From contig DATEZQ010000003.1 in assembly GCA_035583355.1 (NCBI GenBank), positions 193,844-257,843 of the forward strand: a stretch of DNA of 64,000 nt. Direction: 5' to 3'. Within the stretch, counting starts at the first letter, position 1. Each line of letters opens with the position of its first letter. Below the pieces are notes generated by a model. It ran no database searches. It saw nothing but the letters and a program-made list of their open reading frames with translations, and was not told the origin of the DNA. Position numbers and translations under genes: made by a program. Of the stretch, positions 17,695-35,884 are shown in pieces. The stretch comes from Minisyncoccota bacterium. GTDB lineage: Bacteria > Patescibacteriota > Minisyncoccia > Phycocordibacterales > UBA6899.

Positions 17695-17698
17695 TCAT

Positions 17699-18943: not shown

Positions 18944-19042
18944 TTTTATTTCCACAAAACAAAAAGCGCCTTCGGGCGTTTTTTGTTTTGCGGAAATAAA
19001 ATTACTTTTTCTTTACGTTCACCTGCTGGGTGACGGCCGCAT

Positions 19043-19265
19043 CTTTTTGCTTGGATCGGCCTCACGCTTCGCCCACGACTCATGTCAATATTTTGTTCGC
19101 AAGGCTCCAAAATATTGTATGGTCTCGGGCCCGCCTCGCCGTCTCGAGGACTCGACATGGCTCCGGCTTACTCGCGGGAAAATGTTTCACATTTTCGATT
19201 CCCGCTCGTACTCCCTGCACCACTTTACACTATCGGACTCCAGCGAGGCCGCTGCAAGCAAAAAT
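19043..19265 (+). repeat. intergenic repeat family copy C (long form, downstream of rplB)
   Basis: Starts ctttttgcttgg..cggcctcacgcttcgccc and ends ggactccagcgaggccgctgcaagcaaaaat. Same termini as the short copy at 45462-45545, with about 130 nt of extra internal sequence. Confidence 0.65.
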
Positions 19266-19444
19266 CTGAGCGGGTACATTTTCTTGTATTTTACAGATTA
19301 AATATTAGTGCTACTCTATTATTACAAGCGGGGTAAATGCCAGCCTAACGAGGTGCTCGCGGAAATTTCAATTTGCTGCTTATTCGAATCACTAAAAATA
19401 ATCGCAATGAACATTTTTACAAAGATCGGCACGGAGGTCATCAT

Positions 19445-19550
19445 GCGGGGGAGGGTTCTTGACTCCTCTGATGCAAGTTTTTGTAGGCATTTAGTGGGCT
19501 GTCATCATCCCTGTATGATGACAAGGCGGGTTCAACTCCCGCCCTCCGCA
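19445..19550 (+). ncRNA. tRNA-like/tmRNA-like structured RNA candidate #1
   Basis: 5' GCGGGGG pairs 7/7 (one G-U) with 3' CCTCCGC. T-arm GCGGG-TTCAACT-CCCGC. Discriminator A, CCA not encoded. Terminator hairpin follows at 19566-19592. At 106 nt it does not fold as a canonical tRNA. Confidence 0.35.
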
Positions 19551-19565
19551 TAATTTTTATAAATA

Positions 19566-19592
19566 CTAAAAAACGCTAAATAGCGTTTTTTA
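19566..19592. terminator. bidirectional rho-independent terminator
   Basis: aaaaaacgcta-aa-tagcgtttttt. Serves the RNA candidate on + and the HEPN gene on -. Confidence 0.6.
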
Positions 19593-20165
19593 GTTTCTTG
19601 GTGTGTTCTCGATTAATATTTCTACTAGCGACCTAAGTGCGAAATATCCATTTCGAACTAAAATTTGATCTCTTATCGAATTTGGATCTTTCGTTCCATG
19701 AAAAAGATTATTACGAATTTGATACAACACCTCAACCATATTGCTCCAATCTTCTTGGTTATTTATGTTTCCCCGATCATCGCGAACCCCTATAAACTTA
19801 TTGCGGGAGGAGTTGTTCCACCAGCCAGCATCACCCTGAAGACCAGTATCATTAAGTTCATTCATGAGTTCAAGCCAGCTTCCTCTTAGTACTGAGTCCT
19901 TAGCAATTTGATTGATGTAATGCTGCTGCACGGTGGTTTCAGCCTTTAATATTTGAATCGAGCTACGCTCTTTCCCGTCCCCTCGATATAGCTGTCTTAT
20001 GAGTGATACAAACGCTAGATACTCCACCATGAATAGAATGAAAAAATCAATATTTGCTTTATTGTGCCAATCAATTGCTCTTTTTAAGAAATCAACAGGA
20101 GTTGCTCCTTCAAGCATTTTCATTAAAGCATTGATTTGCATCTGCAATTCTTCTAGGGTTGCCAT
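19590..20165 (-). CDS. HEPN-motif protein (putative Abi-like RNase)
   Basis: C-terminal QIRNNLFHGTKD matches the HEPN Rx4HG motif. Start chosen at MATLEEL. Confidence 0.45.
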   Translation of the reverse strand: MATLEELQMQINALMKMLEGATPVDFLKRAIDWHNKANIDFFILFMVEYLAFVSLIRQLYRGDGKERSSIQILKAETTVQQHYINQIAKDSVLRGSWLELMNELNDTGLQGDAGWWNNSSRNKFIGVRDDRGNINNQEDWSNMVEVLYQIRNNLFHGTKDPNSIRDQILVRNGYFALRSLVEILIENTPRN

Positions 20166-20248
20166 ATAGGTATTATATTCCAAACTAACAATACTTCAAT
20201 TTTATCTACTTGAGTGTGGACTGAGCTGGCATGTGCTAATATGAATAC

Positions 20249-20524
20249 GTGACCAAGAACCCAAAAAATATATTTGTACCTGATGCGGTGCTGGATCTGC
20301 AGAGGCTGTCGATGAAACAGGCGACGGCGAAGTTGAAGAATTTGCGCAGCAGCTACAAGAAGGGGACGAAGGTGCGCATACTCATCGGGAAGGGTGGGTA
20401 TGGATCAGCGCCTCCGGAGATCCCGACGCTGACGAAGAAATTTCTCACCAATGAGGGCTATGCTTGGTCCTATGCCAAGCCGGTGGATGGTGGTGATGGA
20501 GCGCTTGATTGTATTATCGAGTAG
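20249..20524 (+). CDS. Smr-domain protein
   Basis: VLDLQRLSMKQATAKLKNLRSSYKKGTKVRILIGKGGYGS resembles the Smr core (LDLHG...A...L...V.IIHGKG). Confidence 0.5.
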   Translation: MTKNPKNIFVPDAVLDLQRLSMKQATAKLKNLRSSYKKGTKVRILIGKGGYGSAPPEIPTLTKKFLTNEGYAWSYAKPVDGGDGALDCIIE

Positions 20525-20539
20525 TCATAACAAACAGAA

Positions 20540-20572
20540 TACTGTTCAATAAAAAATGGGGCCTGGCCCCAT
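20540..20572. terminator. bidirectional terminator
   Basis: aaaaaatggggcc-tg-gccccattttt between convergent genes. Confidence 0.6.
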
Positions 20573-20604
20573 TTTTGTTTTTCTACTGAGCGATACTTAT
20601 TTGT

Positions 20605-21126
20605 TTATGTTCTAAGGGCGGCATTACGCACGTCGTCGTCGCTCACCTCTCCAGCAAGATACTTGCAGAGCAAATTGGTGTCGGCTGGTGTGCCCGGGAG
20701 TCCTGCGTAGGGGGTAACAAAATCCGTGCCGTCTTGCAGGGTGACCGAGATGCCATGGCCGGTTACGAATCCTCTGCGCTCGGGGAGGATCCACGTTTCC
20801 AGAATAGCGAGGGTGTGTTGTTTGCTGCCTTCATCCCAGCTAAGCTTGAGGAATGTTGGGATGCGTTCGGCATCCTGTCTTTTCCGCAACGTGGGTGGAT
20901 AGAGCGGGACACAGAGCGCGATGATTCCTTCTTTGCCCTCTTCGGGGTAGAAGGTGATGCGCTTATGGTCTTCGACCAAGCTTCTTCCGGGCTTCGAGCG
21001 GACGGAAGTTCCAAGCAGAAAGATCGCGTTGTGGGAATCTTTGACGCCAAGATGGATCGTGTTGCCCTCACGTTCCGTATAGAGCAATTCGTCGATACGC
21101 ATACCGTCTCCAATGTGCATGAACAA
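20605..21126 (-). CDS. hypothetical protein
   Basis: 173 aa ORF with no recognised motif. Confidence 0.4.
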   Translation of the reverse strand: MFMHIGDGMRIDELLYTEREGNTIHLGVKDSHNAIFLLGTSVRSKPGRSLVEDHKRITFYPEEGKEGIIALCVPLYPPTLRKRQDAERIPTFLKLSWDEGSKQHTLAILETWILPERRGFVTGHGISVTLQDGTDFVTPYAGLPGTPADTNLLCKYLAGEVSDDDVRNAALRT

Positions 21127-21233
21127 ACTGTGCTGATACTAGCGCATATAACACAATGGTCAAGAAAATGTAAGCAGTTACTATTTTGCTCATACTATTC
21201 TCTACTGCCCATTTATGCTATTATGCGGGCAAT

Positions 21234-21497
21234 ATGAAAAAGCCATACGAAGAGGAGGTTGATGAGGATGAGCAGGATGAGGACGAGGTCGTCGTCGATG
21301 CGAATGGTACGCCGCTCGCAAATGGCGATACTGTGCTCGTTATTAAGGATCTCAAGGTAAAGGGAAGTCCGGTTGGTTTTAAGAAGGGGACTAAGATCAA
21401 GAACATTCGCCTTACGGGTGGTACTGAAGGTATCAGTGGTAGCACTGATCAGATCAAGGGTTTCACGATTCGCGCAGAATACGTGAAGAAGGCATAA
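21234..21497 (+). CDS. PhnA/YjdC-like protein (C-terminal domain only, acidic N-terminus)
   Basis: VVDANGTPLANGDTVLVIKDLKVKGSPVGFKKGTKIKNIRLTGG...IKGFTIRAEYVKKA closely parallels the E. coli PhnA C-domain. The N-terminal Zn-ribbon is replaced by EEEVDEDEQDEDE. Confidence 0.65.
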   Translation: MKKPYEEEVDEDEQDEDEVVVDANGTPLANGDTVLVIKDLKVKGSPVGFKKGTKIKNIRLTGGTEGISGSTDQIKGFTIRAEYVKKA

Positions 21498-21523
21498 ATA
21501 AAAATGGGGTCTGACCCCATTTT

Positions 21524-22054
21524 TTAATACGTTGGACTTTCCTCACTAATTCCTGCACGGTGATTCGACTGGCGCGCAAGGGCATAGAGGAGGCTCGAAA
21601 GACGATTGAGGTAGGCAAGTGTTGAGGGATTGAGTGCGAGGATGCCTTCGTCGTGCACGGCAACCATGCGACGCTCCGCTCGTCGCGCGATTGTGCGCGC
21701 AACATCGAAGAGTGCTCCGAGTTCGGTTCCTCCAGAAACGAAGAAAGTTTTTACTGGCGGTAGGGTAGTTTCGATGTCGTTAATGATCTGTTCTATTTCC
21801 GTCACTGACTCCTGTGCAATATTTTTGTCTGCACCAGCAGTTTCTGCTTGCGCGATGAAGAGGTTATTCTGTACATTCCCGATGAGGGTACCAAGCTCGA
21901 GGCCAACTTGTTTGTGTACTTTGATGAGTCCTAGAAACGAGTTTATCTCATCAAGTGTGCCAAGAGCCTCTGTAATCGAGGAATTTTTCGAGAAGCGTAC
22001 TTTTGAGCCAAATGCGCTTGTTGTTCCGTCGTCACCTTTTCCTGTATAAAGCAT
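21524..22054 (-). CDS. ATP:cob(I)alamin adenosyltransferase (PduO-type)
   Basis: MLYTGKGDDGTTSAFGSKVRFSKNSSITEALGTLDEINSFLG is the N-terminal signature of the PduO/MMAB family. Start at the internal M, 22054. Confidence 0.7.
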   Translation of the reverse strand: MLYTGKGDDGTTSAFGSKVRFSKNSSITEALGTLDEINSFLGLIKVHKQVGLELGTLIGNVQNNLFIAQAETAGADKNIAQESVTEIEQIINDIETTLPPVKTFFVSGGTELGALFDVARTIARRAERRMVAVHDEGILALNPSTLAYLNRLSSLLYALARQSNHRAGISEESPTY

Positions 22055-22115
22055 AGGACAAGTGTAGCATGTTCCTTTGCATGAGAAAAAGCGCCACTTT
22101 GTGGCGCTCGCTGAT

Positions 22116-22403
22116 TCATTCGAAAGCGATGTGGGGGACAAGCGGCTTGGTGACTGGACTCGCGAGGCACTCGGTGCACAGCGCGCCCGCAGCTTCGGCC
22201 TTGCTTGTGGAGGCAGAGCGCCAGCTGACGGAGGGCCGCACTTTCAAGAGCTTTCCGCCCTCCGTGGGCAGGGTGGTGTACTTGTTCAGGTCGCAGTTGC
22301 ACTGATCGGGAATCGCGTCGGTGGTCTCGACGTTGCGTGCCTCGACGACTACGCCTACTCCGCACAGTATGCAGAGATACTTCCGCTCCTCTTTGTAGGT
22401 CAT
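22116..22403 (-). CDS. small Cys-rich (zinc-ribbon-like) protein
   Basis: CILCG...CNC...CTEC motifs. The overlapping +strand ORF (22077-22574) looks non-coding. Confidence 0.3.
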   Translation of the reverse strand: MTYKEERKYLCILCGVGVVVEARNVETTDAIPDQCNCDLNKYTTLPTEGGKLLKVRPSVSWRSASTSKAEAAGALCTECLASPVTKPLVPHIAFE

Positions 22404-22574
22404 ACGCACTCCTTCTGTATTGTTCGCCAGCGCGAACGAGGGTCTGTGCCTATGCTACGCTTTGCGGCACCATACGTCAAATGGCTCATTATTCTCAGAT
22501 TATTGCAAAGCCTCCTTACGTACGGTAGTCTACGTGTAGAGCCATTGTATTGCAGTATTTCTGAAAGGGAGCAC

Positions 22575-23387
22575 ATGCAGAAGTCACTGTTATCGCGTCA
22601 CTTTGAATTTGGAATTTGGATGTTTGATCTTGACGATACGCTCATGTGGAATTGCACGACGTACAATCAGCCCATCATCGATTTCATTCAGTACCTCACT
22701 GAGGTCTTTGGAAATCGCATTCCCTCATTGGGGACGATGGCACGCATTCAGGAAGACATCGATTGCGGACTGGGGAAGAAGCCTAACCCACGTACGGGTG
22801 AGCTCTATGGATTTGGGGCGGACCGTTTCCCTGATTCATTGATGATCACGTATCGTCAGCTCTGCACGCGTGGGTTCGGCACCTATGATGCAAATGTTGC
22901 AGAGCGGTGTCGTGAGATTGGGAAGCGTGCATTCGATGTGGAGAATTATTCCCGGCTCGGACTCGTGCCGGGAGCACAAGAGCTCTTGGACGCAATTCCC
23001 GTACAGCACCATCAGGTACTTGTCACCAAAGGTGAAAAGTGGGTGCAGGAGAACAAGATCAATGCCCTTGGTTTTCGCGATTGGTTTGATGACATCTTCA
23101 TCGTCGATCACAAGGATGGCGATACGTATCGAGACATTCTCTCGAGCCTCCGCGCAAAAGCAGGGATGCAGTCTGAGCTCTATGTGCCCGAAAACTGCAT
23201 CGCGGTAGGGAATTCGTTCTCATCTGATATCGCACCAGCACTCGCACTCGGCATGAACGCAATCTTCATTCCATGCCCCACATGGATAGCGGAGAGTGTA
23301 ATTGTCGACGAACTCTCCGAAGATGCGAGTAGCCGCTTCGTGGAACTTGAAAACATTTCCGAAATCCATTCGCTCATTTCGTACTAG
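22575..23387 (+). CDS. HAD-superfamily hydrolase
   Basis: WMFDLDDTLMWN (DxDxT motif I). GAAAGGGAG SD before the ATG at 22575. The ORF track's upstream extension is rejected. Confidence 0.65.
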   Translation: MQKSLLSRHFEFGIWMFDLDDTLMWNCTTYNQPIIDFIQYLTEVFGNRIPSLGTMARIQEDIDCGLGKKPNPRTGELYGFGADRFPDSLMITYRQLCTRGFGTYDANVAERCREIGKRAFDVENYSRLGLVPGAQELLDAIPVQHHQVLVTKGEKWVQENKINALGFRDWFDDIFIVDHKDGDTYRDILSSLRAKAGMQSELYVPENCIAVGNSFSSDIAPALALGMNAIFIPCPTWIAESVIVDELSEDASSRFVELENISEIHSLISY

Positions 23388-23430: not shown

Positions 23431-24087
23431 TCACTTCGGCATCTGGAGCGGATCCATGACGCCGGTTTCGTAGGCCTTCTTGGTCTGGCTGTCGAGGATG
23501 ATGCGTTCCATCTTCTCGAGTGCTTCTTTCCCGTAATAGACCTTGTCGCCGATGCGGGCCTGGAGGTTGTTCGTGGGGAAGAAGTACTTGAGGATGTATG
23601 CGCGTGCGAAGCCCTTGCGACGCCAATTGTTGTAGGTGCGAATCTGGTCGAGCAGGTAGTCCTGCTTTCCCTTGAAGGCCTCGCGACCCGCTTTTACGAA
23701 CGGGAGAATCTTGTCATAGATTCCGAATTCGTTCGTGCCGGGGTAGGCCTCCTTGATCATCGAGACCATGGCCGAACCATCGAATCCGCCACCTTCTTTA
23801 TCGTAGCGGCCAGTGACGGCGTCGGTCATGAACTTGGTCATCTTGTCGCTCTTCATGTTCGCGATGCCGGCCTGCTCGTAGAACCCGGAGACGTAGGAGC
23901 TGAGCTCGTTCTGGTTGCTGAGGAAGAGCGCGGACAGCGCGGTCTCCTGGGGGACGCTTTCGTTGTACGTGTCGTTCACACAGGAGTAGGACAGGAGGAG
24001 CGCGATGATCGCGATCGCACCATAGACCCACTTCTTGAGCTTCTTCCAGGAGAAGCTGAATCCGTTGTCGTTCGCATTCTCGTTCAT
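23431..24087 (-). CDS. membrane-anchored hypothetical protein
   Basis: N-terminal TM WVYGAIAIIALLLSY. AAGGAG SD. Start overlaps the stop of the upstream gene (operon with 24090-25565). Confidence 0.5.
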   Translation of the reverse strand: MNENANDNGFSFSWKKLKKWVYGAIAIIALLLSYSCVNDTYNESVPQETALSALFLSNQNELSSYVSGFYEQAGIANMKSDKMTKFMTDAVTGRYDKEGGGFDGSAMVSMIKEAYPGTNEFGIYDKILPFVKAGREAFKGKQDYLLDQIRTYNNWRRKGFARAYILKYFFPTNNLQARIGDKVYYGKEALEKMERIILDSQTKKAYETGVMDPLQMPK

Positions 24088-24089
24088 GA

Positions 24090-25565
24090 TCACTCCTTGA
24101 TGTGTATGCGCAGCTTGCGCAAGACTTCGTTGAAGAAAGAGTCTCCGTCGCACATAGCGAAGAGGACCCAGATGAGGCACGAGGTGATGAATGCGGCGAT
24201 GCCGATATACCATTCCTGATCTCGCCCGAGGCGAATATCATTCTTGAGATAAAGGTAACCGCCTTGTCCGTCCTTCCCAGTCATCGAGACGCGTTTGAAA
24301 CGGACGCCTTGCACTTCTTTGCCCATAAGGATACGGGGGATTATTCCCGGCTCCTTTTGCGCTTGATTCATTACGCTGATGTTCCATCGCGTTGCGACGG
24401 ACGAAAAGAATGAATCATCAGCGACATTGTTCTGACTCGACTTTGCTACGCTCATCGGTTTTCCGAGGAGTAGCTCGTGCGAAAAAGGCTTTCCCGCCAA
24501 TTGCTCATTGAGCGCGATGGTCAGGCGTTCGTTTCCGCGGGGCATGCCGGTAAAGGCACGTGCATAGTCGACATGCTCTCCACTATCTCGAGTGCCGATG
24601 AGCACAACAAGTGCATTCTTCGCGAGTGCATCTTTGCCGTGCTTTCCAGAATCGAGCATGTATGCTTGGAGTGCGAGCATGTAACGGTCGGGATTGCCAC
24701 TAATGAGTTTTTCATTAGTGATGATCACGTAGAGGTCGCACTGCACATCGCCGAGACTTGCATTGGTATACGCAAGGGATTGCGCCCACCCATTACTGAA
24801 GGGGACGTTGCCAAAGATGAAACAGCGCTGTGGATTAATGAACCCCGAAAGATTGCGTGCAAGTTTCGGCATGAGGCCTTTCGCTTCGTACTCTGCGATA
24901 TCACCAGAGTGCTTGCGCATGAGCGATTCATTGCTCGCGAGGATGTAGTTGTCGTAGGAATTACGCGTGGTGACTGGGGCAGGTTGTCCCTGCTGTAGTC
25001 GCTCGCGCAAAGCACGCCATGAGCTCGGTTCGCCGACGCCCGCACGCTGCTGGATGTAGTCCGGCACAGGCACCGACCTCCGCCAGCGATGCTGGTTGGG
25101 ATTCTCGGGAAGGCGATATGAGTCGACAGTGTAATCACCGAGTGTTGTTCCCGCGTTGTAGTTCAGTTCGAACGTTGTATACGGGCACTGATGATAGCGT
25201 GTCTCTGCACGATAGCAGGTTCGCGACTGTTTGCCGTCGCCGCACTCATAAGGGACCATAACGACATACGGATCGCAGTCGTAGGTCCAGCGGCCCGGTC
25301 CATCGCGTGAAGTCTTGATGAGCTCACGCGTCGCGCTGCTTTCCCAGCCGTTCCAGTTTTCGTTGAAGGTGAGATTGCTTGCCTGTGCAATTTTCCATCC
25401 AATCCACGCAGTGGAGGGGACGAGAATGGTACAGATTGCGATCGCACCGGTCACGAACTCTATTTGCGTGATGCGCAGATAGGGGTGGAAACGCTTGAGT
25501 AGTGCTCCGGTGATGAATCCTGCGAGGAGTGCGGCGATGATGACGTAGAGTGCAATGGTAAGCAC
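24090..25565 (-). CDS. membrane protein (2 N-terminal TM, large extracytoplasmic domain, C-terminal TM)
   Basis: 491 aa. Hydrophobic segments at both ends. Cys-rich segment YDCDPYVVMVPYECGDGKQSRTCY. Confidence 0.5.
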   Translation of the reverse strand: MLTIALYVIIAALLAGFITGALLKRFHPYLRITQIEFVTGAIAICTILVPSTAWIGWKIAQASNLTFNENWNGWESSATRELIKTSRDGPGRWTYDCDPYVVMVPYECGDGKQSRTCYRAETRYHQCPYTTFELNYNAGTTLGDYTVDSYRLPENPNQHRWRRSVPVPDYIQQRAGVGEPSSWRALRERLQQGQPAPVTTRNSYDNYILASNESLMRKHSGDIAEYEAKGLMPKLARNLSGFINPQRCFIFGNVPFSNGWAQSLAYTNASLGDVQCDLYVIITNEKLISGNPDRYMLALQAYMLDSGKHGKDALAKNALVVLIGTRDSGEHVDYARAFTGMPRGNERLTIALNEQLAGKPFSHELLLGKPMSVAKSSQNNVADDSFFSSVATRWNISVMNQAQKEPGIIPRILMGKEVQGVRFKRVSMTGKDGQGGYLYLKNDIRLGRDQEWYIGIAAFITSCLIWVLFAMCDGDSFFNEVLRKLRIHIKE

Positions 25566-25757
25566 AGAGGCTCCTTTTTTGAAAGAATTTCTATGGTAAC
25601 ATAACCATGCAAAAGTGCTTTTGTCAATAACATCAAGTCTACATACTTAATGGAAATACTAGGAAAGAAAGAATGCACGCGATGGAATGTTACAGTCTTC
25701 GTTTAGATTGCTCAATAGTGGAATTGCTTTATACTTATGTACATAACTATTAATATC

Positions 25758-26324
25758 ATGGCAAACCAAGAAAGTGGTGCAGGGATGGCACGCGAGCGCG
25801 TCGCCTCAGATATCGAATTAACGAAGGGTGGTGCAGATTACACGGTAGACGCAGGGGCAGACCGCCCTCGTCTCGAGGCAACACAGGAGCAGATCGAGGC
25901 TATGCGTGGGATGGAAAATAACGCAGAGCTCGGTGCAGCTGCTTTGCAGCAAATCGGCGAGCGTGTTGCTGCAGAAAAGGCTGAAGCTGCAGAGATCGAG
26001 AAGCAGGAAAAGGCAAAGGCCGATGCACTCATTGTTGTGCAGCGTGATAAGTTGAATCAACTTTATGATGCAGCGAACTACTCTCCAGAAGAGCGTAATG
26101 ATACTGAGATTGGACACATCAAACTTGCCGTTGATTTGAGTAAAGATAAGTGGACTCCTCGTGATCAGCGTCCACAGAATAAGCCACCTGTTGTACAAGG
26201 TTTTGGTGATAATCGCCCACAGCGAGCGCAGGCCGCAGGCTACTATGCAGGCACATTGCCTACAACTGCTCCCCCAGTCCAAAAGCCAAAGGGTTTCCTG
26301 AAAGGACTATTCGGTGGCAACTAG
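25758..26324 (+). CDS. hypothetical protein
   Basis: ORF with an Ala/Glu-rich region. Terminator hairpin aagagcaccttcggggtgctcttt at 26352-26376. Confidence 0.4.
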   Translation: MANQESGAGMARERVASDIELTKGGADYTVDAGADRPRLEATQEQIEAMRGMENNAELGAAALQQIGERVAAEKAEAAEIEKQEKAKADALIVVQRDKLNQLYDAANYSPEERNDTEIGHIKLAVDLSKDKWTPRDQRPQNKPPVVQGFGDNRPQRAQAAGYYAGTLPTTAPPVQKPKGFLKGLFGGN

Positions 26325-26428
26325 TAGATATTCCTCTATTTTGCATAACAAAGAGCACCTTCGGGGTGCTCTTTACAATATATAAAATATATCGTAGGGT
26401 TTAGCGAGAAGTGCTCCAGAGGTGCACC

Positions 26429-26968: not shown

Positions 26969-27009
26969 GTAATAGGTTAAAGGCCCGCAACCGCGGGCCT
27001 TTTGTTATT

Positions 27010-27561: not shown

Positions 27562-27597
27562 TGGTGTATTTTATCATGAGTGAAAACTGATAAGAGC

Positions 27598-28224: not shown

Positions 28225-28319
28225 GAGTATATCTTACCACGATAGTATAAATAATGAAGTATAAAAGATGGTGCGCGCTTGTGCACTCATTTTCTTTGTT
28301 CTCATGTTATTATGGAGTA

Positions 28320-28925: not shown

Positions 28926-28988
28926 ACACCACCCGTGTTTATTTTTTTAGTGAAAAACGAGCGCCGAAGCGCTCGTGTGTTTTGTGAT

Positions 28989-30539: not shown

Positions 30540-30564
30540 AAACCACCAGAGGTGGTTTTGGAAA

Positions 30565-31695
30565 TTATTGAACAGTAGAGAGTGAAAACGCGCATCCGCT
30601 TGGGCTGATGTTGGGCATCACTCCAAGGTATTTTGTGCACCACTGATTTGCCTCAACGGGAGAGAGGAACGTTGGTACTGCGCGTACTATCTTGTAGGGA
30701 TAGAGCATGAACTCACTACTTCCTGAGTAGAGGCTCATGCCAACGCCGACTCCTTCGTTTTGTTTTTCTCCAATTTGATCGAAGATAAAATTACCGACTG
30801 CGTAGAATATTGCATGTCCCTTATAGACCTCAATATTTTCTATGACGTGCGGATGGTTGCCGATGATGACATCTGCTCCTGCATCGATCCAGCGATGCGC
30901 AAGAATTTTTTGAGTGTCATTCGCACGAGGTGCATATTCGTCACCCCAGTGTACGGTGACAAGTACGAGGTCATGTGAACCTTTAAGTTTTGCGATGAGC
31001 GTAGGGATTTTCTCGAGTGACATGGCGCCTATTGTTGCATCGAGTCCGACAATCGCGATACGGGTTCCGCTCGCATTGCGAGACTCGACCCACGTACTGT
31101 CGATTTGTGGGTAACCCGCTGCAAGTATTTCCGCATTGAGTAAATACTTCATGCTCGAATCAATCCCGGCTTGATTGCAGTCGAGCATGTGATTGTTTGC
31201 AATGGTCACCGCATTGAATCCCTCAGACTTGAGTAGCTTTGCGGTTGAAGTAGGGAATTGAAAATTCAGCTCCTTTTGCTGGCATTCACTGCGCGGCATT
31301 GCAATGATAGGTCCCTCAAGGTTGAGCATGCGGATATCATAGTCACTCATGATGTCCATAGCGCGAAGACTGGAGAAGAGGTCGGTGCCATTGTCAACGG
31401 TTTTGCGCACTGCACGATCGAACATCGCATCACCAAAGTGAAGGAGTTTCATTGGAGCAAAATTGGTACTCTTTTTGAAAGGTGCAACGACCTCAGTGGT
31501 TGTGGCCTCGTCTGTTGTTGTGGCGACATTAATGATTGGATTTGTGGGAGTAGCAGCAAGCATGCCCCCACTGAATGTTATAGGACCCGTGCGCCCAATG
31601 ACTTTGCCAAGTGCATTTGAGAAGATAAAAACGTTTACCGTTGATATAACTACGATAAGAAGTCCTATATAGAGGTGATGTTTGCGCGCCTGCAT
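30565..31695 (-). CDS. CapA/PgsA-family metallophosphoesterase
   Basis: HFGDAMFDR...MLNLEGP...TIANNHMLDC...TVHWGDEY...IIGNHPHV. N-terminal TM anchor. Confidence 0.7.
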   Translation of the reverse strand: MQARKHHLYIGLLIVVISTVNVFIFSNALGKVIGRTGPITFSGGMLAATPTNPIINVATTTDEATTTEVVAPFKKSTNFAPMKLLHFGDAMFDRAVRKTVDNGTDLFSSLRAMDIMSDYDIRMLNLEGPIIAMPRSECQQKELNFQFPTSTAKLLKSEGFNAVTIANNHMLDCNQAGIDSSMKYLLNAEILAAGYPQIDSTWVESRNASGTRIAIVGLDATIGAMSLEKIPTLIAKLKGSHDLVLVTVHWGDEYAPRANDTQKILAHRWIDAGADVIIGNHPHVIENIEVYKGHAIFYAVGNFIFDQIGEKQNEGVGVGMSLYSGSSEFMLYPYKIVRAVPTFLSPVEANQWCTKYLGVMPNISPSGCAFSLSTVQ

Positions 31696-31774
31696 AGAGT
31701 TATAGTACCGCTAATTAACAAAGAGTAAAGCGTGTGATTGTTGCAAAAGAGATGACTTCTTGTACTATGGGTTT

Positions 31775-32854
31775 ATGATTTCGCTTGATGATTACGACTA
31801 CGATTTGCCGGAAGAACATATCGCAAAAGATCCTGCGCAGCCGAGGGAGAGTGCGCGACTTTTCGTCTACAACACTGCTACGGATGAGATTACTTTTGAT
31901 ACCTTTGCAAACATTCGTGCGCATCTACCGAAGGATACATTGCTCGTATTCAATAATACGCGCGTGATTCCTGCGCGTCTCTGGCTCAAGAAGGAGACGG
32001 GGGGAAAGATCGAGGTATTGCTTATGATGAATGAGTATCGCGAGGGAGATAGTTATATCAAGGGTGTAGTGGATCGTAAGATCGTGCCAGGTGCGAAGCT
32101 CTATTTCCAGAATGGTGCTTGGCTCGAAGTACATCACCAGGAAGAACAGTTTTTCTTCTTTAAACCAAGTTTCCCGATTCTAGAGATTTGGTCACTTTTG
32201 GATGCTGAAGGGGTAACACCAATTCCTCCGTATATCAAGGGGTCTTCACTGAATGAGAAAGCGCTCCGAGAAGAGTATCAGAGCGTGCTCGCAAAAGTCC
32301 CTGCATCTGTTGCTGCTCCGACCGCATCACTCCATTTTTCTGATGGACTCCTTGAGACTCTGAAAGAAGAAGGTGTGCAGCGCGCAGAAGTGACGCTCCA
32401 TGTGGGCGCGGGAACGTTTGCGCCAATCGGTCCGGAGAACTTCGCATCGAAGAAGCTTTTCACCGAATATTTTTCCGTCGACGGAGATAATGCTGCACTT
32501 ATCAATGCGGCAAAGTCCGATGGGGTTACGGTAATTCCTGTGGGCACTACTGCACTGCGTACTATTGAGTCTGCGGCGGTCATCGATCATATTGATGCGC
32601 AAGGGAAGACTCATTACCGTATCGCCGTAGAACATGGCAAGCCAACGGATATATTCGTATATCCTCCGTACCAGTTCAAGATAGCTGATGCACTCATCAC
32701 AAACTTCCATGTGCCGCGCTCATCACTCATGCTCCTTGTGGATGCAATGCTTGAAGCGAAGGGTGCACGTCGTCGTATTAAGGAGCTGTACGCAATTGCA
32801 ATGAAAGAGGATTTCAAATTCTTTTCTTTTGGGGATGGAATGTTGATTTTGTAG
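31775..32854 (+). CDS. queA: S-adenosylmethionine:tRNA ribosyltransferase-isomerase
   Basis: MISLDDYDYDLPEEHIAKDPAQPRESARLFVY...NNTRVIPARL is the QueA N-terminal signature. Confidence 0.88.
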   Translation: MISLDDYDYDLPEEHIAKDPAQPRESARLFVYNTATDEITFDTFANIRAHLPKDTLLVFNNTRVIPARLWLKKETGGKIEVLLMMNEYREGDSYIKGVVDRKIVPGAKLYFQNGAWLEVHHQEEQFFFFKPSFPILEIWSLLDAEGVTPIPPYIKGSSLNEKALREEYQSVLAKVPASVAAPTASLHFSDGLLETLKEEGVQRAEVTLHVGAGTFAPIGPENFASKKLFTEYFSVDGDNAALINAAKSDGVTVIPVGTTALRTIESAAVIDHIDAQGKTHYRIAVEHGKPTDIFVYPPYQFKIADALITNFHVPRSSLMLLVDAMLEAKGARRRIKELYAIAMKEDFKFFSFGDGMLIL

Positions 32855-32900
32855 AAAATAAAAAACACTCACCATCTGGTGAGTGTTTTTGCGTTTTTTG

Positions 32901-34589
32901 CTACCTGTTTATATATACAGAAATATTTGCAGAGTTATGGTTTGTGAGCACAATATCTGGACGGCCATCGTTATTAAGGTCACCAAGCACAACATCAACG
33001 GGATTTGCATTTGTCGGGAAGTCGACTTTTGTGGCAAAGGTGCCATCCCCATTATTTATGAATAACGAAATAGTATTTGAAACATAGTTTGCTGCGACGA
33101 GGTCTGGCTTGTTGTCTCCATTAATATCTTTCGCTGAAACCATATATGTATTCACCCCTGTAGGATAATCAACTTTTGAGGGGAAGGTACCATCACCTGC
33201 ATTGGCGAAGATAGAGATAGAGTTAGAACCATAATTTCCTATCGCGAGGTCAATCTTTCCGTCACTATTGAAGTCATCGGTTGCAACCGATATCGGAGTA
33301 TTACCTGCTGAGAATGTTACTTTTGGTGCAAAGGTGCCATTGCCATTATTCATCAAGACTGATACATTGTTCGTCGCGATAAAACCTACAAGTACAAGAT
33401 CTGGCTTATTGTCACCATTGAAATCCTGGATAGCGACGCCCGCAGGGTTCCCTCCTGCGGGATAGGTGACTCTTGCTGCAAAAGTGCCGTTGCCGTTATT
33501 CATAAGAATGGCTACGTTTCCACTGCAGTAATTCGCTACCGCGATGTCGAGAAAACCATCACTATTAAGGTCGCCACTTGCGAGATAGCGTGAATTGCAG
33601 GTTGCGGTCTCTGTTTGGTAGATTACTCGTGTATTAAATGTACCATCTCCTTTATTTGTAAGAATGGAAATTGTATGATCTCCATAATCTGCGGTGATAA
33701 GATCGAGCTTGCTATCATTGTTTACATCGAGAAGGATTATCGAGTCGGGCTGAGTGCCTGATACATAATTTACCTTTGCGTTAAAAGTGCCGTCTCCTTT
33801 ATTGAGCAGCACCGAAGCATTATTTGATGCGTAGTTCGCTACTGCGAGGTCTTGTGCTCCATCACCATTCAAGTCACCGATGACCACTGCGCGTGGTTGC
33901 GTATTTACTCCATAATCTACTTTTGCATAGGGGTTAAATGCGTATGCTATTGGTCCACCACCGCTACCTCCTCCGCCTGTAGTTGAAGTTGCTCCGGTTG
34001 CTGCGGCAAATGATGCGAAAGCTCCGACCGTAAGACCTCCAGTGCTGTTGATGTCCATTGTTGCGGTTGGTGCCTCAATGCTCGAAGCTCCTAGGACATG
34101 TAGTTGATTATTTTGCGGCGCAATGTAGGTGTAGTAATTATTTTTATTATTTATGGGGTCAATGGGGAGGGTTTTGATGAATGCATCATTTGCTGTACCC
34201 GAGAGGTTGATGGGGAGCCAACCTGTCCCGTCTGTGTTTTTGAGTGTCGTGGCGAGCACGCAGTTGTATGACCACCCCGGCTGTAATGATGGGAGTCCTA
34301 GATTGTCACAGGTTGATGATGTGTCAGGGAGTGATGTATAGACAGTATTTGCTGCTCCATAGCTTGGATTTGAGGCAAAAGTTTCATATATACTGATCGC
34401 TTTGTGCATCATGAAAAGATCCGCAAGTCTGCGTGCGTCACGACTTTTTGCTTTTGCCGTTGTAAGTGCAGCAAAAACAATTGATGAAAGCAACGCAATA
34501 ATCGCGATGACTACGAGAAGTTCGATGAGCGTAAAACCTCGCACCCGAGAATCTCGTGATTGAGGATGAGGGGAAGTCATTGTTGTCAT
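32901..34589 (-). CDS. pilin-like protein fused to FG-GAP/VCBS beta-propeller repeats (putative pilus adhesin)
   Basis: N-terminal RVRG|FTLIELLVVIAIIALLSSIVFAAL. About 7 C-terminal repeats of D(L/F)NGDG.(D/P)(L/I)..(A/G)NY.SN..S...N.GDGTF. Start uncertain (34580-34646). Confidence 0.7.
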   Translation of the reverse strand: MTTMTSPHPQSRDSRVRGFTLIELLVVIAIIALLSSIVFAALTTAKAKSRDARRLADLFMMHKAISIYETFASNPSYGAANTVYTSLPDTSSTCDNLGLPSLQPGWSYNCVLATTLKNTDGTGWLPINLSGTANDAFIKTLPIDPINNKNNYYTYIAPQNNQLHVLGASSIEAPTATMDINSTGGLTVGAFASFAAATGATSTTGGGGSGGGPIAYAFNPYAKVDYGVNTQPRAVVIGDLNGDGAQDLAVANYASNNASVLLNKGDGTFNAKVNYVSGTQPDSIILLDVNNDSKLDLITADYGDHTISILTNKGDGTFNTRVIYQTETATCNSRYLASGDLNSDGFLDIAVANYCSGNVAILMNNGNGTFAARVTYPAGGNPAGVAIQDFNGDNKPDLVLVGFIATNNVSVLMNNGNGTFAPKVTFSAGNTPISVATDDFNSDGKIDLAIGNYGSNSISIFANAGDGTFPSKVDYPTGVNTYMVSAKDINGDNKPDLVAANYVSNTISLFINNGDGTFATKVDFPTNANPVDVVLGDLNNDGRPDIVLTNHNSANISVYINR

Positions 34590-34790
34590 TATATTAGTAC
34601 TTGAGAATTGTGTGGAGCGCATACTATATATACTATAGTATAACATATGAGATTCTTTCAGCTGATCGTGGCTTCTGCTTCTTTACTTTGAATGCGTTCA
34701 GTGTTACTATCCGCGCAGAATCTGTTCAAAAATCTTGATGGCATCTGTCCATCGCTTGATCCGCGAGAGCGCGCGGGGGAGGTTAGTGCA

Positions 34791-35378
34791 ATGCGTATTG
34801 CCGCGACCCTTGAGGTTGACGAAGGTGCACGAATCGTAAGCACGATCGAGCGCGCCATTTCTTCTGCGAAGTTGTCTCCTGATTACTCTGCGAGTTTCAC
34901 GATGAGTGGAGTGACCATCACCGTTCGCGACGACTCAAGTCCGCGTCTCATCTTCGATGAATTCCTTCGTGCGCTCAACGGGCGCCTCGAGGGCGAAGTT
35001 GGTCCGTATCCCAAGGATATTCCTATCGAGGATCTCTCTGTCCCGCTTTTGCGTGCCGACATTGAAGCACTCCTCGCGGAGGCGCCTCCCATAGAGGTGG
35101 TCGATGAGGAACGCTGGCTTTTGATGAAGGAGACGAATGTCGACAATTGCGGCTATGGCCAAAGCATGGTTGCGTACGCTGAGCGTTGGGCTCGGTTGAT
35201 GCAGCTGCGCCTTGCCAGCGGTCGCAAGATTGATGATGTCGCAGGTCGCGCTTCATTCGAAGTGGACTTCGATGGTATTCGTCCACTTGTGGTGCGTCGT
35301 GCAGTCATCGAACTTTCATTGCACTGGAAATATGGTCGTGAACTGCTTGCTGAGAGCTGGCACGCACGCGGGAAATAG
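34791..35378 (+). CDS. hypothetical protein
   Basis: GGAGG before the ATG at 34791. Divergent from the FG-GAP pilin gene. Confidence 0.4.
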   Translation: MRIAATLEVDEGARIVSTIERAISSAKLSPDYSASFTMSGVTITVRDDSSPRLIFDEFLRALNGRLEGEVGPYPKDIPIEDLSVPLLRADIEALLAEAPPIEVVDEERWLLMKETNVDNCGYGQSMVAYAERWARLMQLRLASGRKIDDVAGRASFEVDFDGIRPLVVRRAVIELSLHWKYGRELLAESWHARGK

Positions 35379-35567
35379 TACACTGCTGAGCCTCGAACGA
35401 ATATGTTCGGGGCTTTTGTTTTTCCTATATGGCTTAAAATATGAGTAAAATATTGTGTCCTTTAGCCAAGAAGGCAATTTTGCTAATAGAATCTATAGGA
35501 CATTTGGTCCAATACTATACTTTGCGGAAAAAATTCAATAAATAGTGCTAAATAAGGCTAAAATCGA

Positions 35568-35596
35568 TTGACAAAAGCAAAAAATGGGAGTAGTAT
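35568..35596 (+). promoter_or_regulatory. sigma70-like promoter with ~290 nt leader upstream of rpsS
   Basis: TTGACA, 17 nt spacer, TAGTAT. A long untranslated leader runs to 35884. Confidence 0.4.
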
Positions 35597-35884
35597 CGTA
35601 TCCAAGCAAATTGAATAAGGAAATTTCTTACGCCGTGGGAGGATCAGGGGCGTTAGATTTCTATGTCAATACGCGGTCTTAGGTCTCGGTAAAGGTTCAG
35701 GTTTTGGGTGCACGCATCCTTCCTACTCGTCCCTGTCCGTCCTCAGGCATTTATAAGTATCGTTAAACTCCGGGTCTTCTTAGAGAAGCTATACGACATC
35801 CTCCCTCGTGTCGGTGATCCTTCGTAAGATTCGGCAGGAACATACAGGTGTTCGATTTCGATCGAACATCTTCATTCAACAAAT

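What the first reader, a model, noticed from the sequence alone, without database searches (positions are those of the whole stretch)
18944..35884. ~17 kb accessory island inserted between rplB and rpsS, opening with a tRNA/tmRNA-like 3' element
A single insertion interrupts the S10 operon at the point where rplB-rpsS are normally adjacent. Its left edge carries a repeat-family copy and a tRNA-like acceptor/T-arm element (19445-19550), the classic position for genomic-island integration at tRNA or tmRNA genes. No integrase is present. The cargo comprises a HEPN-motif protein, an Smr-domain protein, a PhnA-like fragment, a cobalamin adenosyltransferase, a HAD hydrolase, a two-gene membrane operon, two pilins, a CapA-family protein with a 516 aa unknown partner, queA, and the FG-GAP pilin.
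Basis: partly seen in the sequence, partly recalled or inferred. Interest (0 to 1): 0.65.

Follow-up and report, generated by a model that had tools for sequence, protein, structure and literature searches.

The report
Variable gene patch splitting ribosomal operon
In this tiny uncultured bacterium and all its relatives the normally unbroken ribosomal-protein operon is cut after rplB, and the cut has become a slot where different lineages collect different genes; it is not a single mobile island that landed at a tRNA gene.

Summary
rplB (18095-18943) and rpsS (35885-36229) are 16.9 kb apart, there is no integrase, and a tRNA-like element lies at 19445-19550.

The proposed mechanism does not hold:
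- No tRNA or tmRNA gene is detected, and the tRNA-like 3' segment is not repeated anywhere in the window.
- GC, tetranucleotide and codon usage match the rest of the window. The only outlier is one ORF with a HEPN-type motif (GC 0.38).
- Every Paceibacteria-type relative examined is also broken at rplB|rpsS. Gaps run from 0.18 to over 10 kb, against 8-198 nt in other bacteria. A terminator usually follows rplB.
- The genes in the gap differ between lineages. The nearest relatives share blocks of this window's set: Smr-YjdM-CobAT-membrane pair, and AOX-516aa-CapA-queA-Tad4-rpsS.
- rpsS has its own promoter-like site and a leader with a 22-nt motif that is invariant across five lineages.

Best reading: an ancient operon split that became a gene-turnover hotspot of separately terminated cassettes. 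Exchange through the conserved ribosomal flanks is the likely mechanism, but that step is inferred.

Only about 1.3 kb at the left edge looks recently acquired. It holds a tRNA-Leu-like RNA and the HEPN-motif ORF.

The parts
18095..18943 (+). rplB (L2), last gene of the upstream half of the split S10 operon
   Evidence: Pfam Ribosomal_L2_N and L2_C. Synonymous divergence (dS) to L085 is only 0.18, against at least 0.9 in flanking non-ribosomal genes.
18911..19034 (+). Long terminator hairpin. The near-perfect core is 18928-19017 and includes the last five codons of rplB.
   Evidence: Inverted repeat I3: 60-nt arms, 82% complementary, 4-nt loop. MFE -72.7 kcal/mol. By inspection, comparable terminator hairpins follow rplB in 16 of 18 clade loci.
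19042..19265 (.). Copy of a roughly 100-nt palindromic intergenic repeat family, here split by about 130 nt of internal sequence
   Evidence: The ends match 45458-45544 at 83-87%. Family copies follow fusA, tuf, secY and 5S and fold as long hairpins with z of -3.8 to -7.3. L085 and L101 also carry a copy right after rplB.
19445..19550 (+). tRNA-Leu-like RNA element. Acceptor stem, T arm and A73 are intact. The D and anticodon regions are aberrant and there is a 9-bp extra hairpin. No CCA is encoded.
   Evidence: Fold. The 3' 24 nt equal the 3' end of real tRNA-Leu genes. ARAGORN is negative. Rfam tRNA-Sec gives 16.7 bits, E = 2.3. A promoter-like site lies at 19416-19444 and a terminator at 19565-19594. 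The element is absent from all relatives' loci.
19590..20183 (-). HEPN-motif ORF (191-197 aa), the compositional outlier of the region
   Evidence: GC 0.379 and GC3 0.36. RSCU r = 0.03. RNNLFH motif. R151 and H156 are invariant in 40 remote homologs. No Pfam family matches. The AF2 model is all-helical with pLDDT 84.5, with no Foldseek PDB match. The word-index search found only the protein itself.
20249..22141 (.). Smr-like (20249-20524 +), unknown 160-167 aa (20734-21237 +), YjdM/PhnA-domain protein (21186/21234-21497 +), PduO-type cobalamin adenosyltransferase (21524-22141 -)
   Evidence: Pfam. Smr, YjdM and CobAT are shared with L085 in the same order, at 96%, 81% and 91% aa identity.
22077..23387 (+). 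HAD-type hydrolase. The real start is probably near 22575. Absent from L085.
   Evidence: Weak Pfam HAD match; NCBIfam TIGR02253 at 3.7e-10. Translation shows the DLDDTL motif. No hit in L085.
23431..25565 (-). Two-gene membrane pair (260 aa and 491 aa)
   Evidence: Shared with L085 at 73% and 91% aa; the 491-aa protein is shared with L096 at 76% aa. PHROG matches 1383 and 2087.
25737..28224 (.). Two unknown genes (25737-26324 +, 26411-26968 +) and two type IV pilin-like genes (27010-27561 -, 27598-28224 -)
   Evidence: N_methyl motif. Homologs lie in the same order in L096, at 41%, 36% and 81% aa.
28254..32854 (.). Conserved core: alternative oxidase (28254-28925 +), unknown 516 aa (28989-30539 -), CapA/PGA_cap (30565-31695 -), queA (31760-32854 +)
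   Evidence: Pfam. Same order in L096 and L097 (AOX 73%, 516aa 31%, CapA 68%, queA 88% aa). Same order in L087 (33%, absent, 47%, 79%).
32901..34646 (-). FG-GAP repeat pilin-like protein (581 aa), a lineage-specific gain or loss
   Evidence: Pfam FG-GAP_3 and N_methyl. Absent between queA and Tad4 in L096 and L097. Bounded by bidirectional terminator 32861-32890.
34692..35378 (+). Tad4-family protein, directly upstream of the rpsS transcription unit
   Evidence: Pfam PF25186 at 4.4e-15. The same position is kept in L084 (89% aa) and L096 (65% aa). Terminator at 35388-35415.
35568..35884 (+). Promoter-like site (TTGACA-17-TAGTAT, 35568-35596) and rpsS 5' leader, with an invariant 22-nt motif CGCCGTGGGAGGATCAGGGGCG at 35631-35652
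   Evidence: Promoter scan. Leader alignment. The motif is 100% identical upstream of rpsS in L083/84, L096/97, L090 and L099, at 32-312 nt from the ATG. No Rfam family matches.
35885..36229 (+). rpsS (S19), first gene of the downstream half of the split operon
   Evidence: Pfam Ribosomal_S19.

Best explanation
The 16.9 kb is not one mobile element. The window comes from a Paceibacterota (candidate phyla radiation) genome. In its clade the S10 operon was split long ago between rplB and rpsS. rplB now ends at a strong terminator. rpsS and the genes after it have their own promoter and a conserved leader.

The resulting intergenic break is insulated from transcription on both sides. It has become a slot where unrelated genes accumulate as small, separately terminated cassettes in both orientations, and where they turn over. 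This window holds an unusually large, mosaic version:
- An old core shared with related genomes (Smr-YjdM-CobAT-membrane pair; pilins-AOX-516aa-CapA-queA-Tad4).
- Lineage-specific pieces (the HAD hydrolase and the FG-GAP pilin).
- One compositionally foreign 1.3-kb module at the left edge, holding the tRNA-Leu-like RNA and the HEPN-motif ORF.

The most likely turnover mechanism is homologous recombination of incoming related DNA, using the very conserved ribosomal-protein genes on either side as anchors. The shown steps are the clade-wide split, the terminators, the promoter-like site with its conserved leader, the variable and mosaic content, and native composition. The recombination route and DNA uptake are inferred.
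For: **The break is specific and clade-wide.**
- rplB|rpsS gaps in the 12 nearest GTDB relatives that carry both genes are 176-4861 nt. In closer relatives they are 6968 nt (L090), about 9.8 kb (L099) and over 10 kb (L085, L088, L100).
- 58 other bacteria have 8-198 nt, and other junctions of the same operon stay mostly under 140 nt.
- A terminator hairpin follows rplB in 16 of 18 clade loci.

**rpsS has its own control region.** There is a promoter-like site at 35568-35596, and the 22-nt leader motif is invariant in five lineages whose other leader sequence and synonymous sites have diverged.

**The gap content differs between lineages.**
- MazF toxin (L004).
- Diacylglycerol kinase (L015).
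- DUF5674 (L014).
- Large surface proteins, with an IS200-like gene in L011 (L003, L011).
- NADAR, response regulators and LemA (L090).
- MerR, RelA_SpoT, ThiF and LigB (L088, L099).
- Cellulase and PLD (L091).

Sources.

**The window's set is mosaic.** L085 shares the left and middle genes, and L096 and L087 share the right part, each with local gains and losses.

**Cassette structure.** 31 terminator-like sites were found, against 15.8 +/- 3.3 expected.

**Native composition and codon usage**.

**No mobile-element signatures.** No integrase, no att-like repeat and no tRNA gene.

**Recombination signature.** Against L085, the tuf-rplB block has synonymous divergence (dS) of 0.04-0.18. Genes just upstream have dS 0.9 to over 3, and region genes run from 0.35 to saturated. 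The non-homologous replacement begins right at the rplB stop.

**Precedent.** Related Patescibacteria are naturally competent and insert cassettes into intergenic sites by homologous recombination with about 1-kb flanks (PMC10633639).
Against: - The recombination mechanism rests on one comparison (L085). A chimeric metagenome contig could produce the same pattern.
- Stronger selection on synonymous sites of highly expressed genes lowers dS somewhat in any case. In the L096 comparison, ribosomal genes have dS 0.36-0.7 while neighbours are saturated.
- All relatives are metagenome assemblies, and loci were limited to 10-kb flanks. Several gaps were therefore seen from one side only.
- Promoter and terminator calls are consensus matches, not transcript data. 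Promoter-like sites were not enriched overall (14 found, 20.3 expected).
- Competence was shown for Saccharibacteria, not for this class.
- The origin of the tRNA-like element remains unexplained.
Confidence: 0.72

Rival explanations
1. First reader's model. One integrative genomic island inserted at a tRNA/tmRNA-type attachment site between rplB and rpsS. The integrase was later lost, and the tRNA-like element is the attachment-site remnant.
For: - A tRNA-like acceptor and T-arm element sits near the left edge.
- Its 3' 24 nt equal real tRNA-Leu 3' ends.
- The adjacent ORF has foreign composition.
Against: - No tRNA or tmRNA gene.
- No second copy of the 3' segment anywhere in the window.
- No recombinase.
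- The region as a whole has native composition.
- The break exists in every clade member, with different contents.
- Relatives share sub-blocks, not the whole.
- The element carries both acceptor strands, so it is not a duplicated 3' half.
Confidence: 0.04
2. Only the left-edge 1.3 kb (about 18946-20230) is a recent horizontally acquired mini-module. The tRNA-Leu-like RNA and the convergent HEPN-motif ORF work together. One possibility is an RNase toxin or defence protein whose decoy, antitoxin or substrate mimic is the tRNA-like RNA.
For: - This segment is replaced by unrelated genes in L085, although rplB and Smr on either side are shared at 95-98% and 96% aa.
- ORF GC is 0.379 and RSCU r is 0.03.
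- The Rx4H motif is invariant in 40 homologs.
- All five helices of the RNA are well formed, which is unlike a decaying pseudogene.
- The RNA has its own promoter-like site and shares a bidirectional terminator with the ORF.
Against: - There is no second example of the RNA, so covariation cannot be tested.
- The genomic context of the ORF's homologs could not be retrieved.
- No fold match to known HEPN structures.
- No hit to defence-system models above noise: DzbB at E = 0.004.
- The functional link is pure inference from adjacency.
Confidence: 0.15
3. Cassettes are captured at this site by a hairpin-recognising recombinase encoded elsewhere in the genome, such as an IS200/IS605-type or REP-associated tyrosine transposase. 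The terminator hairpin and the palindromic repeat after rplB would be its targets.
For: - A long hairpin plus a palindromic repeat copy follows rplB in the window, L085 and L101.
- Copies of the same repeat family sit at other operon breaks: after fusA, tuf, secY and 5S.
- An IS200-like Y1 transposase lies in the gap of L011.
- Cassettes are bounded by hairpins.
Against: - No such enzyme is in the window.
- Cassette boundaries share no common sequence.
- Hairpins after genes are simply terminators.
- The repeat family is not found at internal cassette junctions.
Confidence: 0.07
4. Assembly or binning artefact: unrelated contigs were joined inside the conserved ribosomal cluster.
For: The source is a metagenome-assembled genome.
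Against: - Two independent Logan contigs reproduce both junctions at 100% identity.
- L085 links rplB to the membrane pair, and L096 links the membrane pair to rpsS.
- L090 and L099 span whole gaps in single contigs.
Confidence: 0.02

Closest known systems
Horizontal-transfer hotspots / plasticity zones between conserved core genes (concept from comparative genomics of cultured bacteria; recalled from my own knowledge, not retrieved here)
   Same: - The same two core genes flank the interval in all genomes.
- The interval holds different accessory genes in different lineages.
- Most of it lacks recognisable mobile-element genes.
- Exchange through flanking homology is the favoured mechanism.
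   Different: - The interval lies inside the S10 ribosomal-protein operon, one of the most conserved gene orders in bacteria.
- It exists because of an operon split fixed across a whole clade.
- It also holds housekeeping genes such as queA.
tRNA/tmRNA-targeting integrative genomic islands
   Same: - A block of non-core genes next to a tRNA-like sequence.
- One adjacent gene has foreign composition.
   Different: - No integrase.
- No intact target tRNA or tmRNA.
- No flanking direct repeats.
- Native composition overall.
- Content is shared piecemeal with relatives rather than as a unit.
Ribosomal-protein operon leaders (autoregulatory 5' UTR structures such as the S10/L4 or L10 leaders)
   Same: A long 5' UTR before the first gene of a ribosomal-protein transcription unit, with a short segment that is invariant across lineages.
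   Different: - No match to any Rfam family.
- It sits before rpsS, which is normally an internal gene.
- Its distance to the start codon varies from 32 to 312 nt.
- The binding partner is unknown.
Class II tRNA (tRNA-Leu)
   Same: - 7-bp acceptor stem and discriminator A73.
- 5-bp T stem with a 7-nt UUCAACU loop.
- A long extra arm.
- A 3' 24-mer identical to real tRNA-Leu genes.
   Different: - No 7-nt anticodon loop with a Leu anticodon.
- No D loop with GG.
- An extra hairpin after the acceptor strand.
- 106 nt long.
- Rejected by ARAGORN at default settings, and the best Rfam tRNA-clan score (16.7 bits) is below gathering thresholds.

Membership tests
tRNA/tmRNA-targeting integrative genomic island | Tyrosine or serine recombinase (integrase) gene at one end | tested here: not met
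   No recombinase or transposase domain in any gene-sized ORF of 18944-35884, using Pfam, NCBIfam, PADLOC and PHROGs.
tRNA/tmRNA-targeting integrative genomic island | Insertion into the 3' end of an intact tRNA or tmRNA gene | tested here: not met
   ARAGORN finds no genes in the window. No Rfam tRNA or tmRNA match at gathering threshold. The best tRNA-clan hit is 16.7 bits, E = 2.3.
tRNA/tmRNA-targeting integrative genomic island | Direct repeat of the tRNA 3' segment at the far end (attL/attR) | tested here: not met
   The 22-nt 3' segment has one match in the window with up to 3 mismatches allowed. Short-word blastn of the left edge finds nothing near 35.4-35.9 kb beyond chance 10-11-mers.
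tRNA/tmRNA-targeting integrative genomic island | Compositional difference from the host genome | tested here: not met
   GC is 0.487 against 0.492. Tetranucleotide and codon usage are indistinguishable from controls. Only ORF 19590-20183 deviates.
tRNA/tmRNA-targeting integrative genomic island | Present or absent as one unit among relatives | tested here: not met
   Relatives share sub-blocks with local gains and losses. No relative has adjacent rplB-rpsS.
Gene-turnover hotspot between core genes | Same flanking core genes, different gene families in the interval across genomes | tested here: met
   At least 15 loci with rplB and rpsS flanks carry largely unrelated contents.
Gene-turnover hotspot between core genes | Evidence of recombination in the flanks | tested here: inconclusive
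   Against L085, synonymous divergence (dS) is 0.04-0.18 in tuf-rplB and at least 0.9 in neighbours. This is one comparison, and a chimeric contig is not excluded.
Canonical tRNA (tRNA-Leu) | Acceptor stem, T arm and discriminator | tested here: met
   7-bp acceptor, 5-bp T stem, UUCAACU loop and A73. The 3' 24 nt are identical to tRNA-Leu genes in L093-L095.
Canonical tRNA (tRNA-Leu) | Standard D arm and 7-nt anticodon loop with a readable anticodon; detection by tRNA finders | tested here: not met
   The fold shows a 3-nt-loop hairpin, a 5-bp stem with a 12-nt loop, and a 9-bp stem with a 6-nt loop. ARAGORN finds something only at lowered thresholds, with inconsistent calls.
tmRNA | tRNA-like domain plus a tag reading frame and pseudoknots (typically well over 200 nt, from my own knowledge) | tested here: not met
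   The element is 106 nt. ARAGORN tmRNA mode finds none even when relaxed. No Rfam tmRNA hit at E up to 10.
HEPN superfamily (ORF 19590-20183) | Conserved Rx4-6H motif | tested here: met
   RNNLFH in the ORF. R151 and H156 are invariant, and N152, N153, L154, F155 and G157 nearly invariant, in 40 homologs.
HEPN superfamily (ORF 19590-20183) | Match to a HEPN family profile or HEPN fold | tested here: inconclusive
Ribosomal-protein operon leader | Conserved structured 5' UTR that binds a protein encoded in the operon | not testable with these tools
   Conservation of a 22-nt motif is shown. The predicted long-range pairing has no informative covariation with three close sequences. Binding needs an experiment.

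The most novel reading that the evidence does not exclude
The left-edge pair is a new kind of two-part module: a HEPN-type RNase together with a dedicated tRNA-Leu mimic. The mimic has an intact acceptor and T-arm minihelix on a remodelled body. It would act as decoy, antitoxin or guide for the nuclease, and the pair would have been acquired as a unit into the operon-split hotspot.
Probability: 0.08. Interest if true: 0.7.

Novelty: new variant of a known kind. Interest (0 to 1): 0.5.

Why it matters
The S10-spc ribosomal cluster is used as the textbook case of gene order that almost never changes. It is also the backbone of marker-gene phylogenies and of binning for uncultured bacteria.

Here a whole clade of Patescibacteria has this cluster cut at a fixed junction, and the cut has been filled with up to 17 kb of changing genes. 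This has three consequences:
1. **Transcriptional uncoupling.** The two halves of the operon can be separated without loss of viability. A new promoter and a conserved leader then evolve in front of rpsS.
2. **A comparison point.** The site offers a well-anchored place to study gene gain and loss in organisms that cannot be grown.
3. **A practical caution.** Contigs broken or joined at ribosomal genes, and 'islands' called from interrupted synteny, need care in these lineages.

The same site would also be a candidate neutral landing pad if these bacteria become genetically tractable.

Tried and rejected
- **Rfam.** Searched at gathering threshold on the whole window and at E up to 10 on both edges. 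Nothing relevant was found, and the many microRNA and sRNA 'hits' at 18928-19017 only reflect the long hairpin.
- **ARAGORN at lowered thresholds** gave mutually inconsistent calls (Thr, Gly, Arg, intron-containing Stop). I rejected these as noise.
- **tmRNA reading rejected.** The element is too short, has no tag frame and is not detected.
- **Search of viral contigs** for the tRNA-like 3' 24-mer gave no hits.
- **ORFs in relatives' gaps.** An all-against-all comparison of ORFs in the short gaps of distant relatives, and against all window ORFs, found no shared gene. Nucleotide comparison of those gaps found only the coding flanks.
- **A correction to my own reading.** I first read a blastn result as an identity jump from 79% to 97% at rpsJ|rplC. 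A sliding-window alignment showed this was an averaging artefact: tuf and rpsJ are also 95-98% identical. The claim was replaced by the dS analysis.
- **Literature searches** for a described rplB|rpsS split in candidate-phyla bacteria found nothing.
- **Homolog context.** The genomic context of remote homologs of the HEPN-motif ORF could not be looked up, because the look-up tool only accepts other protein sources.

Full report
**What is there**

Pfam identifies tuf, rpsJ, rplC, rplD, rplW and rplB (18095-18943) on the plus strand. After 16,941 nt come rpsS (35885-36229), rplV, rpsC and rplP. The window's own proteins are recorded in NCBI as from a 'Candidatus Paceibacterota bacterium' MAG, on a 259.5-kb contig. 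The nearest species-level reference genomes share only 60-64% L2 identity and are Paceibacterota, Kaiserbacteria, Taylorbacteria and Zambryskiibacteriota.

The intervening genes are as follows:

| Coordinates | Strand | Gene |
|---|---|---|
| 19590-20183 | - | ORF with a HEPN-type motif |
| 20249-20524 | + | Weak Smr match |
| 20734-21237 | + | Unknown ORF |
| to 21497 | + | YjdM/PhnA-domain protein |
| 21524-22141 | - | Cobalamin adenosyltransferase |
| to 23387 | + | HAD hydrolase |
| 23431-25565 | - | Two-gene membrane pair |
| 25737-26968 | + | Two unknown genes |
| 27010-28224 | - | Two pilin-like genes |
| 28254-28925 | + | Alternative oxidase |
| 28989-30539 | - | 516-aa protein of unknown function |
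| 30565-31695 | - | CapA/PGA_cap |
| 31760-32854 | + | queA |
| 32901-34646 | - | FG-GAP pilin-like protein |
| 34692-35378 | + | Tad4-family protein |

No recombinase domain was found. Both junctions are reproduced at 100% identity by independent Logan contigs, L001 and L082. The arrangement is therefore not an assembly artefact.

**The left edge**

Right after the rplB stop lies a very long hairpin. Its arms are 18911-18970 and 18975-19034, and its near-perfect core is 18928-19017. The hairpin includes the last codons of rplB and ends in a T-run.

Next is a copy of a palindromic repeat family (19042-19265). Its two ends match 45458-45544 at 83-87%, and about 130 nt of extra sequence lie between them. 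Other copies lie just after fusA, tuf, secY and the 5S rRNA gene. They fold as roughly 100-nt hairpins with z-scores of -3.8 to -7.3.

- It has a 7-bp acceptor stem (GCGGGGG/CCUCCGC), discriminator A, and a 5-bp T stem with loop UUCAACU.
- Three further hairpins do not fit a D arm or an anticodon arm (z = -2.9).
- ARAGORN finds no tRNA or tmRNA in the whole window.
- Rfam gives only a 16.7-bit tRNA-Sec match.
- Relaxed ARAGORN runs give inconsistent calls.

The last 24 nt were found exactly three times in the JGI metagenome collection. Each time they form the 3' end of a normal tRNA-Leu gene. None were found in viral contigs.

The element is therefore a tRNA-Leu-like RNA or relic, and it is not tmRNA. 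It carries both acceptor strands, so it is not a duplicated 3' half of the kind left at island borders. No copy of its 3' segment exists elsewhere in the window, even with three mismatches. It is absent from every relative's locus.

**Composition**

- The region has GC 0.487, against 0.492 for the rest of the window.
- Leave-one-out tetranucleotide correlation is 0.909. Two control 17-kb chunks give 0.931 and 0.917.
- Codon usage of the region's genes correlates at 0.94 with other non-ribosomal genes of the window. That is better than the two halves of that control set correlate with each other (0.88).
- The single clear outlier is the HEPN-motif ORF, with GC 0.379, GC3 0.36 and RSCU r = 0.03.

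**Relatives**

In 58 loci from other phyla, rplB and rpsS are 8-198 nt apart. Of the 15 nearest genomes, three contigs end before rpsS; in the other 12 the gap is 176-4861 nt, while other junctions of the operon remain short.

These gaps hold real genes that are unrelated to each other:

| Locus | Gap content |
|---|---|
| L004 | MazF-type toxin |
| L015 | Diacylglycerol kinase |
| L014 | DUF5674 |
| L003 | 1439-aa Big_7/PG-binding protein |
| L011 | 1007-aa PKD/CARDB protein plus an IS200-like transposase |

Closer relatives (L2 80-98% identical) all have multi-kb gaps:

| Locus | Gap size | Content |
|---|---|---|
| L090 | 7.0 kb | NADAR, response regulators, LemA, TPM, LigB |
| L099 | 9.8 kb | MFS, ThiF, LigB, and queA divergent from rpsS |
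| L088 | over 10 kb | MerR, RelA_SpoT, ThiF, LigB |
| L091 | over 5 kb | Primase-like zinc ribbon, cellulase, PLD |
| L100 | over 10 kb | Pilins, HD, methyltransferase, YjdM |

In L100 the queA gene lies 53 kb away on the same contig, next to rpmE and prfA.

The nearest genomes share parts of this window's set:
- **L085** has Smr (96% aa), YjdM (81%), CobAT (91%) and the membrane pair (73% and 91%). It has different genes in place of the tRNA-like/HEPN module and the HAD gene.
- **L096 and L097** have the order membrane protein, two unknowns, pilins, AOX, 512-aa protein, CapA, queA, Tad4, rpsS. They lack the FG-GAP pilin and carry an extra deacetylase and pilin.
- **L087** has AOX, CapA and queA.
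- **L084** has Tad4 next to rpsS.

So the break is old and clade-wide. Much of this window's content has been inherited within its genus, and pieces have been gained or lost locally.

**Transcription architecture**

- A terminator-like hairpin with a T-run follows rplB in 16 of 18 clade loci, by inspection of the folds.
- Inside the region, 31 terminator-like sites were found where 15.8 +/- 3.3 are expected. Several are bidirectional and sit exactly between convergent genes. The region is therefore a string of small independent units.
- Upstream of rpsS there is a terminator for Tad4 (35388-35415), then a TTGACA-17-TAGTAT site (35568-35596), then a leader of about 285 nt.
- The leader is conserved in blocks between the window and L083/L084. 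Two hairpin-like stretches have been replaced.
- A 22-nt motif, CGCCGTGGGAGGATCAGGGGCG (35631-35652), is identical upstream of rpsS in the window, L083/84, L096/97, L090 and L099. It lies 32-312 nt from the start codon, although the rest of the leader has diverged.
- RNAalifold pairs GGGAGGAU in the motif with AUCCUCCC at about 35789. With three close sequences there is no informative covariation.
- No Rfam family matches.

**How the region changes**

Against L085, synonymous divergence (dS) is as follows:

| Gene set | dS |
|---|---|
| tuf, rpsJ, rplC, rplD, rplW, rplB | 0.04-0.18 |
| Six genes just upstream | 0.9 to over 3 |
| Smr | 0.35 |
| YjdM | 0.59 |
| Membrane pair | 0.44-0.91 |
| CobAT | saturated |

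The non-homologous replacement starts at the rplB stop. In the L096 comparison, ribosomal genes have dS 0.36-0.7 with saturated neighbours. Selection on ribosomal genes alone therefore does not explain the L085 values.

This fits a recent homologous exchange of the tuf-rplB block, ending at the variable slot. A chimeric metagenome contig would look the same, and this is a single comparison.

Natural competence, and insertion of cassettes into intergenic sites through roughly 1-kb homologous flanks, have been shown for Saccharibacteria (PMC10633639). Whether this class behaves the same way is not known. The window contains several type IV pilin-like genes that share a conserved 5' segment.

**The wider pattern in the window**

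The same ribosomal super-cluster is also interrupted at two other junctions:
- Between fusA and tuf there are about 9 kb, holding a pilin, a c-di-GMP-II riboswitch and other genes. This junction is also variable in L088, L090 and L091.
- Between rplE and rpsH there are about 1.8 kb, holding a pilin and an unknown gene. L096 and L099 have other genes there.

The rplB|rpsS slot is the largest of several.

**The HEPN-motif ORF**

- A word-index search found only the protein itself.
- An exhaustive HMMER search found 131 remote homologs of 150-300 aa.
- In an alignment of 40 of them, R151 and H156 of RNNLFHG are invariant.
- None match a Pfam family apart from occasional added HTH or zinc-finger domains.
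- The AlphaFold model is all-helical with pLDDT 84.5. Foldseek finds no PDB match.

The HEPN assignment therefore rests on the motif alone. Its adjacency to a tRNA mimic is suggestive, because some HEPN nucleases cut tRNAs (from my own knowledge). The link is untested.

**Verdict**

The interpretation as one island integrated at a tRNA/tmRNA site is not supported.

The best-supported account is an ancient, clade-wide split of the S10 operon. The gap acts as a gene-turnover hotspot, and this window carries a large mosaic version of it. A small, probably recent module sits at the left edge.

I found no description of this split in the searchable literature. I rate it a new variant of a known kind, of moderate interest.

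Noticed in passing
window 35631-35652 (leader 35600-35884): The 22-nt motif CGCCGTGGGAGGATCAGGGGCG is 100% conserved upstream of rpsS in five diverged lineages, at 32-312 nt from the start codon. It contains a Shine-Dalgarno-like GGGAGGA, and a complementary AUCCUCCC lies about 150 nt downstream. No Rfam family matches. It is a candidate new ribosomal-protein leader element.
   Followed up: partly
window 28254-28925: An alternative oxidase (Pfam AOX, 2.7e-35) in a Patescibacteria genome. It is kept at the same place in L096 (73% aa) and L087 (33% aa). This is unexpected for organisms generally described as lacking respiratory chains (that description is from my own knowledge).
   Followed up: partly
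window 34692-35378: A chromosomal gene matching the phage Thoeris-inhibitor family Tad4 (PF25186, 4.4e-15; PHROG 9822). It is conserved immediately upstream of rpsS in L084 and L096.
   Followed up: partly
window 5342-5572, 15562-15668, 19042-19265, 45452-45550, 58504-58700; L085 7750-7862; L101 about 3400-3560: A family of roughly 100-nt palindromic intergenic repeats. Copies sit just downstream of highly expressed units (fusA, tuf, rplB, secY, 5S rRNA). The stems are maintained although the sequences differ between copies.
   Followed up: partly
window 5337-14357 and 39806-41623: Two further breaks of the ribosomal super-cluster: about 9 kb between fusA and tuf, and about 1.8 kb between rplE and rpsH. 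Each holds a pilin-like gene. No rpsN was called by the source annotation or hit by Pfam between rplE and rpsH. The contents of these gaps also differ in relatives.
   Followed up: partly
window 14358-18943 against L085 5977-10804: tuf-rplB synonymous divergence (dS) is 0.04-0.18, while adjacent genes are at 0.9 to saturated. This is either a recent recombination tract between lineages or a chimeric metagenome contig.
   Followed up: partly
window 28989-30539: The 516-aa unknown protein is only 31% identical to its positional counterpart in L096, while its neighbours CapA and queA are 68% and 88% identical. It is either a very fast-evolving protein or a replaced allele.
   Followed up: no
window 7029-7112 (-): A c-di-GMP-II riboswitch (64.6 bits), lying at and overlapping the 5' end of minus-strand ORF 6449-7063, inside the fusA-tuf gap.
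   Followed up: no
window 54994-58376: 23S and 5S rRNA genes with no 16S gene found in the 55 kb upstream. The 23S gene is bracketed by a 32-nt inverted repeat (54994-55025 and 58190-58221, 94% complementary), probably a processing stem.
   Followed up: no
window 6256, 27473, 28142, 34471, 49114 (+ frame copies) and 49377-49490 (inverted): At least six pilin-like genes in 64 kb share a conserved 5' coding segment of about 70 nt (the N-terminal methylation and transmembrane region).
   Followed up: no
L011 14043-14735; L004 11107-11493: An IS200-like Y1 transposase and a MazF/PemK toxin occupy the rplB|rpsS gap in two distant relatives.
   Followed up: no
window 15552-15769 and 16130-16391: The tuf|rpsJ and rpsJ|rplC spacers are also long (218 and 262 nt). 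The rpsJ|rplC spacer reaches about 1 kb in some relatives. Their content was not examined.
   Followed up: no
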